Source: an uncultured bacterium (GTDB taxonomy: Bacteria > Oederibacteriota > Muellerivitia > Muellerivitales > Muellerivitaceae). From it: a DNA stretch of 64,000 nt. Position numbers and translations under genes: made by a program. This document shows positions 9,891 through 53,017 of this stretch, piece by piece (the first letter of the stretch is position 1; each line of letters starts with the position of its first letter). The notes under the pieces were generated by a model that saw nothing but the letters and a program-made list of their open reading frames with translations, was not told the origin of the DNA and made no database searches. Location of the stretch: assembly GCA_964529445.1 (NCBI GenBank), contig CAZGWJ010000003.1, forward strand, positions 5,592 through 69,591, written 5' to 3'.

Positions 9891-9913
9891 TGGAGCGGGC
9901 GATGGGACTCGAA
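9891..9913. repeat. attL: 23-bp direct repeat identical to the 3' end of tRNA-Gly(CCC)
   Basis: tggagcgggcgatgggactcgaa, identical to 52995-53017. It is the reverse complement of the last 23 nt of the tRNA, including CCA. Confidence 0.8.
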
Positions 9914-10012
9914 AACAAGGTGCTCAGTTCACGTTTCCCAAGGTTAGCATCATTTTTCACGCACTTAGGAAGCAATTTTCCACGCCCTTTCCTTCACCAA
10001 CCCAACATCATT

Positions 10013-10420
10013 TTAAAGGATTTCTAGCGGATTTGCACACCCTTCAGGCGCTGCGGGTAGAGAAAAGGTAGATGCGAACTTCTTCATCTGTTCCTCGTCC
10101 AAACCCCAATCAAATGGCTCTTCGCCCTCAACCGGCTCCAACAGTTTCTTCTTGAAGAAAGCCAGTTGCACCGGGTCATCAGGTATTCCTAGACTCCTAT
10201 GCCACGCTTTGAGAAGCATCTCCCGTTCCCGCCGAACTTCCATACCCATCTCAAGGTACTTCAGGATCAGAGGATCGCCGGGCTTGACACGCTCGAACCA
10301 TTCTATCTTTTCATCTACGTAGCGAAGAACCGATTGACACACGTGAAGCATCTTTTCGTTATCCTCAGTATCGCCAAAATTCGGAAGTCTCATCTGTTCC
10401 TCCTCGTGTTCACGTATCAC
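10013..10420 (-). CDS. Hypothetical protein
   Basis: 135-aa ORF. The start is ambiguous between a GTG at 10420 and an ATG at 10393. No recognisable motif. Confidence 0.4.
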   Translation of the reverse strand: MIREHEEEQMRLPNFGDTEDNEKMLHVCQSVLRYVDEKIEWFERVKPGDPLILKYLEMGMEVRREREMLLKAWHRSLGIPDDPVQLAFFKKKLLEPVEGEEPFDWGLDEEQMKKFASTFSLPAAPEGCANPLEIL

Positions 10421-10442
10421 ATTTGGTCCAGTTTTGTACTAC

Positions 10443-10943
10443 TTACAGGACCTCATCCAACAACAATCCCTCCGGGTTCGCCGATGGCTCTGTAGTCACA
10501 CTTTGGTTGCCCGTTGTTTCGCCCGCTTCACCAGCTGTTCGGGATTCGATATCGCTCTGCCCATCTACCGGTGTGGATTCTCTTGCCGCCAGTAAACCCA
10601 GTGCCTTTTCCACATCCAGATCCTCTGCGCGGATGGCAGCCAAAATCGGAGGGATTCGGCTTATGGCCGTCTGAGTGTCCAATGCTTCAGCATTTGAAGC
10701 CGCTTTCAACAAACCGTTCAACACCCTCGCCAGCGACTCAATCCGATGCCGTTTGCCAATGGCCAACCCCTCTACGAACGACTCCATCTCCAATATCTTC
10801 AAGCCGCTAATCGTCGACGAGTGTGCTTTGCCCCACTCAACCAAAATCGTCTTTGACAGCCCCATTTTCTCGGCGATTTTCGCGTATGAAACACCCTGAC
10901 TACGCAACTCAATGAACTCCTTGTGCCTTTCCAGCGATTCCAT
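10443..10943 (-). CDS. Helix-turn-helix DNA-binding protein
   Basis: N-terminus ELRSQGVSYAKIAEKMGLSKTILVEW is a typical HTH (sigma region-4 or resolvase-like), followed by an acidic tail. Confidence 0.5.
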   Translation of the reverse strand: MESLERHKEFIELRSQGVSYAKIAEKMGLSKTILVEWGKAHSSTISGLKILEMESFVEGLAIGKRHRIESLARVLNGLLKAASNAEALDTQTAISRIPPILAAIRAEDLDVEKALGLLAARESTPVDGQSDIESRTAGEAGETTGNQSVTTEPSANPEGLLLDEVL

Positions 10944-11343
10944 GATCCACCTCCGGTGATTTGGGAAGTCCCAGCATTGGATGCGCTTTCGGGCCCAAGA
11001 CGTATTGGGGCCCTAAAGCCCGTAATCCAAGCCGTGACTTCCAAAGCTGATGAGCGTTATTCGCCCATGGCGGTGGGTATATACTTCGTCCTTGTTTCAA
11101 ACCGGTATATTTACCGTGTTTGGAACATTGTTTTGCTTCCTTACACCACTGCTCCCTACTTAATGCAATTCTAACTCGACAGTCATGCCTGTCAATTTAA
11201 AGATATTTATTATAATCCACAGAATTCTACTGCATATTTGCCCCATCAAAGACACCCCGCGGGATAAAGCCCGGGGGCTTTATATGAAAATATGACCTTC
11301 CCCGACAACACGGCAACCAGTTCAAGCATATGTTCGTAATCGA

Positions 11344-11562
11344 TTATTGCTTTTTAAATGTCGTTCGATGCTTCTTTGATGCCTTTTTGACCGTCGTGCG
11401 TGATCGCGTATGCGTCCTCACGCCCTTGCCGTTCTTTTTCGAATACGCCTTCACATGGCTGGGGTTCTTAGCGGATGCACCCTTCAGGCCAGACTCGACC
11501 GGCCCCGGGAACGCCGTCGCCAGAATAAACACCGTCAGGATAAGTACAAGAACGCGTCTCAT
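11344..11562 (-). CDS. Small secreted, very basic protein
   Basis: Start at MRRVLVLILTVFILATAFPG (signal peptide), then a K/R/T-rich tail. It directly follows the stop of the upstream Cys-rich gene. Confidence 0.4.
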   Translation of the reverse strand: MRRVLVLILTVFILATAFPGPVESGLKGASAKNPSHVKAYSKKNGKGVRTHTRSRTTVKKASKKHRTTFKKQ

Positions 11563-52102: not shown

Positions 52103-52216
52103 TAACACGCATGTTCTCCATTAATGCCCCGCCTAATAAATCCTCTAAACTTTGGGCATATATAGAATGCATTCGGGTCAAATGTAACAAAGTAAAATAC
52201 CGACGCGAGATCACCA

Positions 52217-52870
52217 ATGCCACTCGGAATTAGAATCAATAACACTACTGATCAAATCCTTCAACAAAGAATCAACAATTACCCTCAGCAAATAATTTTG
52301 GCAAGTCGTTTTTATAACGGGACACTCAACGCCAATCAACAAGCACATTTCATAGATACTCCAAATCGTCCCATTGGCCGTCAAATTTCCCATTGGAGTT
52401 GCGTTCCTGCATGTTTGGAAATTATGAATTACTTATGGTTCGGAAGCCCCATTACAATACCAATCCAAGATCGAATAAACCCTCTCCCATTCCACGAATG
52501 GGCTCAAAACAACCCCACCGGTGATATACGTTGTGTTTTTATGCCTTGTTCGCCCGCCACGAATATACGTGTTTACTCCGCGCTTCAATGTGCCAGGGAT
52601 ATCCAACCTCAATTCGTACGTGCCACTAATTTCTATGAAGTTTCTCGTATAGCGCCAACTACATTTCTTTCACATTGGGCAATACTTGTAGAGCATCAGG
52701 ATTTTGACCGCAACGGACAAAATCACCGACATGCCACCGTATTGTGTGCGTGGGATCTCAACAATGTTTTTCTCGCATGCCCAGCGGAGAACAGCACAGG
52801 AATAATGCCGCTAAATTGGACTGACTTTGCAGCAACTATTCCAAATCTTTCCATCATTCGTCCAACCTAG
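52217..52870 (+). CDS. Hypothetical protein of 217 aa
   Basis: ORF with ATG at 52217, AT-rich. Contains a Cys/His-containing stretch (HWSCVPACLEIM). No confident family. Confidence 0.4.
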   Translation: MPLGIRINNTTDQILQQRINNYPQQIILASRFYNGTLNANQQAHFIDTPNRPIGRQISHWSCVPACLEIMNYLWFGSPITIPIQDRINPLPFHEWAQNNPTGDIRCVFMPCSPATNIRVYSALQCARDIQPQFVRATNFYEVSRIAPTTFLSHWAILVEHQDFDRNGQNHRHATVLCAWDLNNVFLACPAENSTGIMPLNWTDFAATIPNLSIIRPT

Positions 52871-52950
52871 AGCGCGTCAACACAAGAATGTTTATTACTT
52901 GTTGTTTTAAAGGTAGATGAAAAGGTAGATCCCGGAACTTAATCCAAACC

Positions 52951-52987
52951 TAAAAACAAAAAGCCCCAGGAACACTGCGTTCCTGGG
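52951..52987 (-). terminator. Rho-independent terminator for tRNA-Gly, supplied by the island side of attR
   Basis: Perfect 10-bp stem CCCCAGGAAC / GTTCCTGGGG with loop actgc at 52963-52987, followed on the minus strand by a T-run (the + strand aaaaacaaaaa at 52951-52961). Confidence 0.6.
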
Positions 52988-52994
52988 GCACGAT

Positions 52995-53017
52995 ATGGAG
53001 CGGGCGATGGGACTCGA
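52995..53017. repeat. attR: 23-bp direct repeat forming the 3' end of the intact tRNA-Gly
   Basis: tggagcgggcgatgggactcgaa, identical to 9891-9913. Confidence 0.8.

What the first reader, a model, noticed from the sequence alone, without database searches (positions are those of the whole stretch)
9891..53017. Genomic island of about 43 kb at tRNA-Gly(CCC) with clean 23-bp att repeats and mosaic GC content
tggagcgggcgatgggactcgaa occurs at 9891-9913 and at 52995-53017, where it forms the 3' end of an intact tRNA-Gly(CCC). Between the repeats the GC content is much lower than in the flanks, except for a GC-rich sub-block at about 22-29 kb. There is an AlpA-like gene plus a tyrosine integrase at 48.6-50.0 kb. 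Nearly every other gene is defence- or toxin-related. The integrase is about 3 kb from attR, separated from it by two cargo genes (a SEC-C-motif protein and a 217-aa unknown). The internal GC mosaic suggests the island itself has been assembled from at least two sources.
Basis: seen in the sequence. Interest (0 to 1): 0.6.

Follow-up and report, generated by a model that had tools for sequence, protein, structure and literature searches.

The report
Defence-gene island inserted at tRNA-Gly
A 43-kb stretch of foreign DNA that carries many anti-virus genes has been spliced by its own integrase into the end of a glycine tRNA gene in an uncultured soil bacterium (candidate division FCPU426); this is a familiar kind of mobile island with unusually clear ends, not a new kind of system.

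Summary
The right copy is the 3' end of an intact minus-strand tRNA-Gly(CCC). The 43,082 bp between the copies have 48.8% GC, against 63% in the flanks.

Evidence that it is an integrase-built island:
- Four other FCPU426 genomes have the same tRNA and flanking genes with nothing inserted.
- A sister genome has a 73%-identical integrase at the same tRNA.
- A 56%-identical integrase bounds a 9.4-kb island at tRNA-Gln with a 23-nt repeat in the same tRNA register.
- A tandem GGTAGA-N4-6-GGTAGAT motif lies just inside both ends here and in that island.

Only the AlpA-like gene and the integrase are shared across the family. No phage or conjugation genes were found.

- Only about 12 of 34 ORFs hit defence or toxin families.
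- The GC-rich block (22.05-28.35 kb) is the upstream half of a conserved CARF-containing gene cluster. That cluster shows the same GC step in unrelated loci.
- The 2.9 kb between the integrase and attR is a lineage-specific insertion.
- GC already falls at 8.1 kb, outside attL.

No empty site from the same species and no circular form was found. Verdict: new member of a known kind.

The parts
9891..9913 (+). attL: tRNA-distal copy of the 23-bp direct repeat (a duplicate of the tRNA-Gly 3' end)
   Evidence: Exact match; 0 expected by chance. No tRNA is called here.
52996..53018 (+). attR: tRNA-proximal copy of the 23-bp repeat. It forms the 3' end (T-loop to CCA) of the tRNA.
52996..53070 (-). 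Intact tRNA-Gly(CCC), the integration target
   Evidence: ARAGORN. Rfam tRNA, 68.9 bits. The same tRNA with the same flanking genes is present in L002-L005 and L034.
9851..9885 (-). Terminator hairpin (15-bp stem plus T tail) just outside attL. It is presumably the tRNA's original terminator, left stranded by the insertion.
52963..52989 (-). Terminator hairpin supplied by the island, immediately downstream of the tRNA
   Evidence: It is conserved in the sister island L034.
10056..10073 (+). Tandem arm-type motif GGTAGAGAAAAGGTAGAT in the integrase-distal arm, 143 nt inside attL
   Evidence: One of only two matches to GGTAGA-N4-6-GGTAGAT in the window; 0 expected. The same motif sits at the equivalent end of island L032.
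52912..52930 (+). Tandem arm-type motif GGTAGATGAAAAGGTAGAT in the integrase-proximal arm, 65 nt inside attR
   Evidence: The motif is present beside the tRNA in 10 family loci, representing about 6 distinct elements.
48876..50042 (+). Tyrosine integrase, 388 aa. It has an N-terminal three-strand-plus-helix domain, a core-binding domain and a catalytic domain. Catalytic residues R226, K251, H325, R328, H351 and Y360 are present.
   Evidence: Pfam Phage_integrase. Invariant columns in the family alignment. XerA alignment. AF2 model and fold hits to XerA, Tn1549 Int and full-length lambda Int.
48587..48838 (+). AlpA-like HTH_17 protein, 83 aa: putative excisionase or regulator
   Evidence: Pfam HTH_17. 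53-59% identical homologues lie upstream of the integrase in 5 family loci (L020, L021, L022, L032, L033).
50005..52908 (+). 2.9-kb insertion (GC 0.42) between the integrase and its arm motif. It carries a SEC-C-motif protein (50156-52102) and a 217-aa protein of unknown function (52217-52870).
   Evidence: Absent from relatives, where the integrase coding sequence (last tblastn-aligned residue) ends about 25-40 nt before the arm motif (L034 3107 vs 3146; L032 11134 vs 11158). GC.
41774..47660 (-). Type III restriction-modification system: Mod 41774-44563, Res 44565-47660
   Evidence: PADLOC MTase_III, 1393 bits. Pfam ResIII and RE_endonuc.
35033..41777 (-). Methyltransferase (35033-36205), HerA-like ATPase (36133-38277), 382-aa protein of unknown function (38286-39434), and UvrD/GajB-like helicase (39588-41777)
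29192..34998 (-). UvrD/GajB-like helicase (29192-31222) and PDC-S68 candidate defence protein (31219-34998)
   Evidence: PADLOC PDC-S68, 1410 bits over its full length. Pfam.
19371..27251 (-). Conserved CARF-containing cluster. On the minus strand: Sel1 26306-27001, DUF445 25215-26240, 273-aa 24397-25218, 124-aa 24026-24400, Smr 23659-24006, 94-aa 23175-23459, ~300-aa PDC-M72B-like 22081-22995, ~490-aa membrane protein 20521-21993, and CARF/Cas_NE0113 19371-20531. A divergent small ORF lies at 27072-27251 on the plus strand. The cluster spans the GC step at 22.05 kb.
   Evidence: Pfam and PADLOC. Conserved gene order and GC staircase in L041-L043.
15364..19189 (-). HEC-07 candidate defence protein (17618-19189) and a 735-aa protein of unknown function (15364-17571). 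This is the lowest-GC part of the island.
12154..15308 (+). Protein with a nucleoside 2-deoxyribosyltransferase-like domain (12154-13314), a DarT-domain protein (13460-14635), and a NADAR antitoxin of DarT1 type (14613-15308)
   Evidence: Pfam Nuc_deoxyrib_tr at 1.6e-7, DarT at 4e-12, NADAR-DarT1 at 2.5e-74. DarT1-NADAR is a known toxin-antitoxin defence system (PMC11543638).
27237..28349 (+). DnaJ-domain plus glycine-zipper protein, at the right edge of the GC-rich block
9819..9845 (+). Inverted, degenerate copy of the tRNA-Gly 3' part. It lies outside attL and is of unknown origin.
   Evidence: pair I12 (20 nt, 90% complementary)

Best explanation
Window 9914-52995 is an integrative genomic island in a bacterium of candidate division FCPU426. 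A circular form of the element carried an attP site containing the last 23 nt of tRNA-Gly(CCC). The island's own three-domain tyrosine integrase recombined attP with the 3' end of the chromosomal tRNA gene. Its N-terminal domain presumably binds the tandem GGTAGAT arm-type sites in both arms, and the AlpA-like HTH protein probably acts as directionality factor or regulator.

The crossover rebuilt an intact tRNA (attR), to which the island supplies a new terminator. It left a 23-bp duplicate (attL) next to the tRNA's old terminator.

The cargo is mostly anti-phage or toxin-antitoxin systems plus genes of unknown function. It has been built up by accretion. One clear case is the 2.9-kb, two-gene insertion between the integrase and its arm sites. 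There are no phage or conjugation genes, so any transfer between cells would need a helper.

Shown: the repeat, the tRNA, the composition, the unoccupied sites in relatives, the family-wide 23-nt register, and the conserved arm motifs.

Inferred: integrase binding to the motifs, the excisionase role of the HTH protein, and present-day mobility.
For: - The exact 23-bp direct repeat occurs only twice, with 0 expected. The right copy is the 3' end of an intact tRNA-Gly(CCC).
- GC is 0.488 inside and 0.63 outside.
- In L002-L005 (FCPU426 genomes), the TPR gene and tRNA-Gly are followed within about 60-150 nt by chromosomal genes that lie left of the island here. There is no integrase and only a single copy of the 23-mer.
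- L034, a sister genome with about 70% nucleotide identity in the flanks, has a 73%-identical integrase beside the same tRNA. Its arm and terminator hairpin are homologous.
- L032 has a 56%-identical integrase at tRNA-Gln. An exact 23-nt repeat in the same tRNA register bounds a 9.4-kb island there.
- GGTAGA-N4-6-GGTAGAT occurs only twice in the window, 143 nt and 65 nt inside the two ends. It also occurs at both ends of L032 and next to the tRNA in 10 family loci, about 6 distinct elements.
- The catalytic residues R, K, H-x-x-R, H and Y are invariant. The AF2 model has an N-terminal beta3-alpha domain, and the fold matches tyrosine recombinases, including full-length lambda Int.
- Only the HTH_17 gene and the integrase are shared across the family; the cargo differs.
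- The attR junction is reproduced at 99.9-100% identity in contigs from at least 4 samples.
- Defence families in the cargo.
- No PHROG phage functions were found.
Against: - No empty site from the same species and no attP junction was found. Excision is therefore not demonstrated.
- The unoccupied sites are in distant relatives (44-48% amino-acid identity in the flanking gene). There, synteny resumes at about 5.4 kb rather than at attL, so 5.4-9.9 kb is also lineage-specific.
- The attL junction itself is seen only in this contig. L051 stops 75 nt short of it and L001 stops 458 nt short.
- The integrase lacks the C-terminal tail present in all relatives. This could impair it.
- Binding of the integrase to the motifs is inferred, not tested.
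Confidence: 0.9

Rival explanations
1. The island was integrated as described but is now a fixed, immobile relic. The 2.9-kb insertion cut off the integrase's C-terminal tail and moved it away from its arm sites, so the element no longer excises.
For: The integrase ends at residue 388, whereas all nine relatives run 411-437 aa through the arm motif. No attP or empty-site contig was found in metagenome or viral collections, or among 8 contigs covering the island's right end.
Against: Both 23-bp repeats are perfect, and both arm motifs are intact. All catalytic residues and the conserved region up to about residue 377 are retained. The tail that is lost is variable in sequence and may simply be read-through into the tRNA. 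The AlpA-like gene is intact.
Confidence: 0.35
2. It is a prophage, a phage satellite, or an integrative conjugative or mobilisable element, rather than a plain genomic island.
For: Relatives of the integrase at tRNA-Gln carry DUF5131, ParB_N and many small ORFs, which looks phage-like or plasmid-like. The HerA/FtsK-like ATPase (36133-38277) is distantly related to DNA-translocating ATPases.
Against: Pfam found no capsid, portal, terminase, tail, primase/replicase, relaxase, coupling-protein or type IV secretion genes in any of the larger ORFs. PHROGs and NCBIfam found none in the 10 proteins scanned in each library. The integrase family has no match in IMG/VR. The island DNA has no match in PLSDB. 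The HerA hits are to anti-phage HerA and score far below the family cut-offs.
Confidence: 0.05
3. The region is a tandem array of two or more separate islands that integrated one after another at the same tRNA. The GC-rich block would mark one of them.
For: GC and tetranucleotide signatures differ among segments. The tRNA locus seems to be a repeated target, because 5.4-9.9 kb is also lineage-specific and an inverted att-like scar sits at 9819-9845.
Against: No third copy of the att sequence lies inside the island, even with 7 mismatches allowed. Only one integrase was found. The arm motifs occur only at the two outer ends. The GC step at 22.05 kb lies inside a gene cluster whose order and GC step are conserved in L041-L043.
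Confidence: 0.05
4. Assembly or binning artefact: low-GC DNA from another organism was joined to FCPU426 flanks at the shared 23-mer.
For: The window comes from a metagenome assembly. The attL junction is covered only by this contig.
Against: The attR junction is reproduced at 99.9-100% identity in independent contigs from at least 4 samples. A 23-bp repeat is far shorter than the assembler's k-mer (the contigs are named k141). L034 independently links a related integrase to the same tRNA and flank. A family-specific arm motif lies 143 nt inside attL.
Confidence: 0.02

Closest known systems
tRNA-targeting integrative defence islands and integration hotspots in Enterobacteria (Hochhauser et al. 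2023, PMC10121019; P4-like satellites, Rousset et al. 2022, PMC9122126)
   Same: A tyrosine integrase sits next to a tRNA gene. A short direct repeat rebuilds the tRNA 3' end. The cargo is variable and dominated by anti-phage systems. Only the recombination module is conserved among relatives.
   Different: The integrase is not P4-like. It is at most 26-28% identical to any annotated phage or plasmid integrase, passes no NCBIfam model, and is nearest to Xer-type recombinases. There are no satellite genes such as a primase or capsid-redirection genes. The host is an uncultured candidate phylum.
Lambda-type (heterobivalent) integrases with arm-type sites
   Same: Three-domain architecture, with an N-terminal three-strand-plus-helix domain. 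Tandem repeated motifs lie in both arms of attP, 65 nt and 143 nt from the core. A small HTH partner gene lies upstream of the integrase.
   Different: Sequence identity is about 15-17% in the structural alignments. Binding to the arm sites is inferred only. The partner is an AlpA/HTH_17 type, not lambda Xis.
ICEclc / PAGI-2-type elements that integrate into the 3' end of tRNA-Gly genes (recalled from my own knowledge, not tested here)
   Same: They target the 3' end of a tRNA-Gly gene and leave a repeat of about 18-23 bp.
   Different: Those are about 100-kb conjugative elements with large P4-like integrases and type IV secretion genes. None of these features is present here.
Pipolins as defence-island platforms (PMC11551731)
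   Same: Integrative elements flanked by direct repeats at tRNA genes that hold exchangeable defence systems.
   Different: Pfam found no family-B DNA polymerase (piPolB), the pipolin hallmark, in any of the larger ORFs.
DarTG1 (DarT1-NADAR) toxin-antitoxin defence system (PMC11543638)
   Same: Adjacent, overlapping genes with a DarT domain and a DarT1-type NADAR antitoxin.
   Different: The DarT protein has a 200-aa N-terminal extension and gave no PADLOC DarT hit. This concerns one cargo module only, not the island as a whole.

Membership tests
Integrative genomic island at a tRNA gene | Site-specific recombinase of the tyrosine family with an intact catalytic R-K-H-x-x-R-H-Y set | tested here: met
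   Pfam Phage_integrase at 2.4e-22. R226, K251, H325, R328, H351 and Y360 are invariant in the family alignment and align to XerA. Fold hits to tyrosine recombinases.
Integrative genomic island at a tRNA gene | Direct repeats at both ends, one of which forms the 3' end of an intact tRNA | tested here: met
Integrative genomic island at a tRNA gene | Absent from the same locus in related genomes | tested here: met
   L002-L005 have the tRNA and flank synteny without any insert. These are distant relatives, however, and no empty site from the same species was found.
Integrative genomic island at a tRNA gene | Composition differs from the host chromosome | tested here: met
   GC 0.488 against 0.63. 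Tetranucleotide correlation with the flanks is 0.45-0.75 for most segments, against 0.80-0.87 between the flanks themselves. The GC-rich block is the exception and is host-like.
Integrative genomic island at a tRNA gene | Excision to a circular form (attP) and regeneration of attB | not testable with these tools
   Only contigs could be searched. Exact-pattern scans for the attB junction (metagenome contigs) and the attP junction (viral contigs) found nothing. Read mapping or PCR is needed.
Heterobivalent (lambda-type) integrase system | Arm-type binding sites in both attP arms, and an N-terminal arm-binding domain | tested here: inconclusive
   A conserved tandem GGTAGAT motif lies at both ends here and in L032. 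The predicted N-terminal beta3-alpha domain has pLDDT of about 85. Binding itself was not tested.
Defence island | Several known or candidate anti-phage systems clustered together | tested here: met
   DarT/NADAR, HEC-07, CARF5, PDC-M72B-like, PDC-S68, two UvrD/GajB-like helicases, HerA, a methyltransferase, and a type III restriction-modification system. About 12 of 34 ORFs hit such families.
Prophage | Virion structural, packaging and lysis genes | tested here: not met
   Pfam found none in the larger ORFs, and PHROGs found none among 10 unannotated proteins. No relative of the integrase in IMG/VR.
Integrative conjugative or mobilisable element | Relaxase, coupling protein, type IV secretion genes or oriT | tested here: not met
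   No such Pfam families in the larger ORFs and no such NCBIfam families in the 10 proteins scanned. An oriT cannot be excluded.
Type III CRISPR-Cas ancillary CARF effector | A CARF protein encoded next to a Cas10/type III locus that makes cyclic oligoadenylate | tested here: not met
   A CARF5/Cas_NE0113 protein is present. No Cas10, other cas gene or CD-NTase was found in the island ORFs scanned, and none appears among the precomputed Pfam annotations of L041-L043. No dedicated CRISPR-array scan was run.

The most novel reading that the evidence does not exclude
The conserved cluster in the cargo is an undescribed, CRISPR-independent CARF signalling defence system. It comprises a small divergent ORF, Sel1, DUF445, variable small genes with or without Smr, a ~300-aa PDC-M72B-like protein, a ~490-aa membrane protein with a weakly HEPN-like C-terminus, and a CARF5 protein. 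Its downstream effector genes would be swapped as cassettes. That would explain why the same three-tier GC3 staircase sits at the same gene boundaries in three loci (two independent besides the window) that share only 30-50% protein identity. The ~490-aa family has only 5 representative clusters among 1.84 billion proteins.
Probability: 0.25. Interest if true: 0.65.

Novelty: new member of a known kind. Interest (0 to 1): 0.35.

Why it matters
As an island it is a textbook case, and its value is mainly practical.

- It gives a cleanly delimited mobile element for a candidate phylum with no cultured members (FCPU426). The attB, the reconstructed attP, the arm-type sites and a small, previously undescribed integrase clade that targets the same 23-nt register of tRNA-Gly and tRNA-Gln are all defined. 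These parts could serve genetic-tool design or the tracking of gene flow in peat and soil metagenomes.
- It is a compact catalogue of defence systems and candidates in that phylum.
- It shows that a GC step inside an island need not be a junction between two inserts.

The more interesting lead is the rare, conserved CARF-containing cluster in the cargo.

Tried and rejected
- Exact empty-site junction (left flank + 23-mer + tRNA) in JGI metagenome contigs: 0 hits.
- attP junction in IMG/VR: 0 hits.
- Integrase family profile in IMG/VR: no relatives.
- Exact-protein look-ups of flank and island-end proteins, done to catch alternative junctions. They returned only integrated-state contigs, or contigs that stop short of attL.
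- Search for further or degenerate att copies inside the island, up to 7 mismatches: none. This rejects a tandem-island model.
- Long inverted or direct repeats that could mark IS elements or sub-block borders: none convincing.
- Rfam at gathering thresholds: only the two tRNAs.
- Megablast of the whole island against PLSDB: no match.
- PHROGs, NCBIfam and PDB sequence searches on the unannotated proteins: uninformative.
- AF2 model of the 490-aa CARF neighbour, built from a 3-sequence alignment: low confidence (pLDDT 59.6). Its fold search gave no significant hit, only weak local HEPN-like matches.
- The palindrome TGCAATATTGCA upstream of two operons: only marginally above chance, so dropped.
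- Literature search for PDC-M72: nothing held in the library.

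
Full report
**Observation**

The 23-mer TGGAGCGGGCGATGGGACTCGAA occurs exactly twice in the 64-kb window, at 9891-9913 and 52996-53018. No further copy appears with up to three mismatches, and none is expected in shuffled sequence (family D15).

ARAGORN and Rfam both call an intact tRNA-Gly(CCC) at 52996-53070 on the minus strand. The right copy is therefore the reverse complement of the tRNA's last 23 nt, from the T-loop to CCA. 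Nothing tRNA-like is called at the left copy.

The 43,082 bp between the copies have 48.8% GC, against 62.9% and 62.7% in the flanks. The GC-rich sub-block is real, with sharper limits at 22,050-28,350 and GC 59.3%. A low-GC gene for a secreted BamB-like beta-propeller (8224-9708) lies outside the left repeat.

**Host and the state of the site in relatives**

The flanking TPR protein (53137-55011) finds its best relatives, at 44-48% identity, in four MAGs: two labelled candidate division FCPU426 and two labelled only 'uncultured bacterium'. The window's own species is not in the genome collection.

In all four MAGs (L002-L005), the gene order on the tRNA-proximal side matches the window's right flank:
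- the OmpA-like gene;
- the 408-aa gene;
- the TPR gene;
- tRNA-Gly(CCC), with a single copy of the 23-mer and no integrase.

Within about 60-150 nt of the tRNA come the positional homologues of window genes 4249-5409, 3180-4112, 2613-2987, 2331-2609, 803-2125 and 3-920. The full series is seen in L002-L004; L005 reaches only the first before its contig ends. So the tRNA site is unoccupied in four related genomes.

Synteny resumes at about 5.4 kb, not at 9.89 kb. The three genes at 5.8-9.7 kb (a polysaccharide deacetylase, a GH5 cellulase and the propeller protein) are therefore also lineage-specific. The first two have a host-like composition.

An exact scan of metagenome contigs for the predicted empty-site junction found nothing.

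**The integrase family and the ends of the element**

The integrase most likely starts at GTG 48876 and is 388 aa long. It has only about ten close homologues among 5.8 billion clustered proteins. It is at most 26-28% identical to any annotated phage or plasmid integrase and passes no NCBIfam model. Its nearest matches are Xer-type recombinases.

The homologues are informative in three ways.

1. In L034/L019, a sister genome with about 70% nucleotide identity in the flanks, a 73%-identical integrase lies directly beside the same tRNA-Gly(CCC). The flanking genes are the same.
2. Integrases of 55-57% identity lie beside tRNA-Gln(TTG). In L032, an exact 23-nt repeat (TGGCTGGGGCGGTAGGATTCGAA) bounds a 9.4-kb island there. 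It covers the same register of the tRNA, from CCA back to TTCGA in the T-loop.
3. A tandem motif, GGTAGA-N4-6-GGTAGAT, occurs only twice in the window, with none expected. The two copies are at 10056-10073 (143 nt inside attL) and 52912-52930 (65 nt inside attR), both on the plus strand. The same motif lies beside the tRNA in 10 family loci, representing about 6 distinct elements. It also lies at both ends of the complete L032 island, with the same 11-nt and 12-nt spacing.

The AF2 model of the integrase (pLDDT 72.9) has an N-terminal three-strand-plus-helix domain with pLDDT of about 85. Overall it matches XerA, Tn1549 Int and full-length lambda Int. The catalytic residues R226, K251, H325, R328, H351 and Y360 are invariant.

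Across the family, only the AlpA-like HTH_17 gene and the integrase are shared; the cargo is unrelated. Taken together, this is strong evidence that 9891 and 53018 are the true ends of one recombination unit made by this integrase.

**Further anatomy**

A 15-bp-stem terminator on the minus strand (9885-9851) lies just outside attL. It is presumably the tRNA's original terminator. A second terminator (52989-52963) lies inside the island, directly downstream of the tRNA, and is conserved in the sister island. The island therefore brings a replacement terminator.

In the relatives, the integrase coding sequence (last tblastn-aligned residue) ends about 25-40 nt before the arm motif. The called ORFs actually run on through the motif, which translates as KVDEKVD, and into the antisense strand of the tRNA.

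In the window, homology to the relatives stops after about residue 377 and resumes at the arm motif. So about 2.9 kb (50005-52908, GC 0.42) has been inserted there. This segment carries the SEC-C-motif protein and the 217-aa protein of unknown function.

**Is it real, and what kind of element is it?**

The attR junction is reproduced at 99.9-100% identity in independent contigs from at least four samples. The left-end genes are also found in another data set, although that contig stops 75 nt short of attL. A chimera is therefore very unlikely.

Pfam found no capsid, terminase, tail, replication, relaxase or type IV secretion genes in any of the larger ORFs, and the PHROGs and NCBIfam scans of 10 proteins each found none either. 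The island DNA has no match in PLSDB, and the integrase family has no match in IMG/VR. No third att copy lies inside, and only one integrase was found. The element is therefore a plain, possibly helper-dependent, integrative island. It is not a prophage, not an ICE, and not a tandem array.

**Cargo**

Hits to known or candidate defence and toxin families:
- a DarT-domain protein with a DarT1-type NADAR antitoxin (NADAR E = 2.5e-74);
- an adjacent nucleoside-deoxyribosyltransferase-like protein;
- HEC-07;
- a CARF5/Cas_NE0113 protein;
- a PDC-M72B-like protein;
- PDC-S68 (1410 bits, full length);
- two UvrD/GajB-like helicases;
- a HerA-like ATPase with a methyltransferase;
- a type III restriction-modification system (Mod 1393 bits).

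That is about 12 of 34 ORFs. The description 'defence island' is fair, but 'nearly every other gene' overstates it.

**The GC mosaic**

The GC-rich block has a tetranucleotide signature as close to the host flanks (r = 0.80-0.88) as the flanks are to each other (0.80-0.87). The other island segments correlate with the flanks at 0.45-0.75. Composition is therefore truly heterogeneous.

The block is not a separate insert, however. A search with its DUF445 protein led to three contigs (L041/L042, near-identical copies of one locus from different samples, and L043), none related to this island. They share this gene order:
- small divergent ORF;
- Sel1;
- DUF445;
- variable small genes, with or without Smr;
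- ~300-aa protein;
- ~490-aa protein;
- CARF;
- a variable downstream gene.

Protein identity to the window is 31-66%. In the window this cluster runs from 27.25 kb down to 19.37 kb, so it crosses the GC step at 22.05 kb.

The same three-tier GC3 staircase sits at the same gene boundaries in all three loci:

| Tier | Window | L041 | L043 |
|---|---|---|---|
| 1: Sel1 to the ~300-aa gene | 0.70-0.83 | 0.63-0.73 | 0.58-0.73 |
| 2: ~490-aa gene and CARF | 0.59-0.63 | 0.58-0.59 | 0.45-0.47 |
| 3: downstream variable gene(s) | 0.39-0.44 | 0.36 | 0.32 |

The step is thus a conserved property of the cluster. This fits a model with a stable upstream part and exchangeable downstream genes. It weakens the simple reading that two sources were joined at 22 kb.

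No Cas10 or other cyclase was recognised near the CARF gene. The ~490-aa family is very rare, with 5 representative clusters at E <= 1e-10 among 1.84 billion proteins. Its model is low-confidence and all-alpha, with a membrane hairpin and only weak HEPN-like local matches. This cluster is the most novel lead in the window, but its function is inferred from context alone.

**Unexplained**

An inverted, degenerate copy of the tRNA's 3' part lies at 9819-9845, 46 nt outside attL and beyond the old terminator. It has a 20-nt core with 18 of 20 matches and extends past the 23-nt repeat. The 5.4-9.9 kb region is also lineage-specific, so this copy may be a scar of an earlier event at the same tRNA. 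I could not test this.

**Verdict**

The finding is correct, and it is an ordinary kind of thing documented unusually well: a tRNA-integrated defence island, mobilised by a small and previously undescribed clade of three-domain tyrosine integrases, in an uncultured phylum. Present-day mobility is open. I put the chance that it is now a fixed relic at about 0.35, because no attP or empty site was seen and the integrase has lost the tail found in its relatives.

- Novelty: new member of a known kind.
- Interest: 0.35.
- Most novel reading not excluded: the CARF cluster is a new CRISPR-independent defence system (probability about 0.25).

Noticed in passing
window 19371-27251; L041 8889-17801; L042 194-9106; L043 747-6849: A conserved cluster (small divergent ORF, Sel1, DUF445, variable small genes with or without Smr, a ~300-aa PDC-M72B-like protein, a ~490-aa protein, and a CARF/Cas_NE0113 protein) occurs in contigs that are otherwise unrelated and have no cas genes. 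It shows the same three-tier GC3 staircase at the same gene boundaries in each.
   Followed up: partly
window 20521-21993 (minus strand): The ~490-aa neighbour of the CARF gene belongs to a very rare family: 5 representative clusters at E <= 1e-10 among 1.84 billion proteins. It has no Pfam, PADLOC, NCBIfam or PDB match. The low-confidence AF2 model is all-alpha, with a membrane hairpin around residues 227-270 and a C-terminal bundle that gives only weak HEPN-like fold hits.
   Followed up: partly
window 9819-9845: An inverted, degenerate copy of the tRNA-Gly 3' part (20-nt core, 18 of 20 matches) lies 46 nt outside attL, beyond the terminator hairpin. It is too good a match to be chance, and its origin is unknown.
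   Followed up: partly
window 5410-9890: Four ORFs are absent from this locus in L002-L004: an 88-aa ORF, a polysaccharide deacetylase, a GH5 cellulase lipoprotein and a low-GC secreted BamB/PQQ-like beta-propeller. The tRNA-adjacent region therefore gained genes outside the repeat-bounded island as well. The first three have a host-like composition; the propeller gene does not.
   Followed up: partly
L032 10001-11297; L034 1980-3304; alignment A3: In all relatives, the called integrase ORF (411-437 aa) continues through the arm-type motif (translated KVDEKVD) and the att core into the antisense strand of the tRNA. Integration would therefore change the ORF's C-terminal tail. The reading frame across the core differs between the Gly and Gln elements, so this may be incidental read-through.
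   Followed up: partly
L047 and L050 (window 51239-53014 and 51841-53025): Two short contigs from other samples end within or a few bases past the 23-bp att core. This could be low coverage, or it could be a branch in the assembly graph caused by alternative junctions. It was not resolved.
   Followed up: no
L037-L040 and the JGI 3300050821 contig: The tRNA-Gln relatives of the integrase carry quite different cargo: DUF5131, ParB_N, a TIR_2 protein and many small ORFs. This looks more like a small phage or plasmid than a defence island.
   Followed up: no
window 12115-12126 and 26997-27008: The palindrome TGCAATATTGCA/G lies close upstream of the deoxyribosyltransferase-like gene and between the divergent Sel1 and small-ORF genes. 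There are 2 matches against 0.11 expected. It may be a shared operator or it may be chance.
   Followed up: no
window 48284-48463: A 59-aa, very basic ORF (MAKHANKDPHAVALGRRGGLKGG...) lies just upstream of the AlpA-like gene. It was also called as a gene in the independent contig L036. Its only hit is a weak one to a PHROG of unknown function.
   Followed up: no
window 13460-14635: The DarT-domain protein has an N-terminal extension of about 200 aa and gave no PADLOC DarT hit, whereas its NADAR partner is a strong DarT1-type antitoxin. It may be a divergent DarTG1 variant.
   Followed up: no
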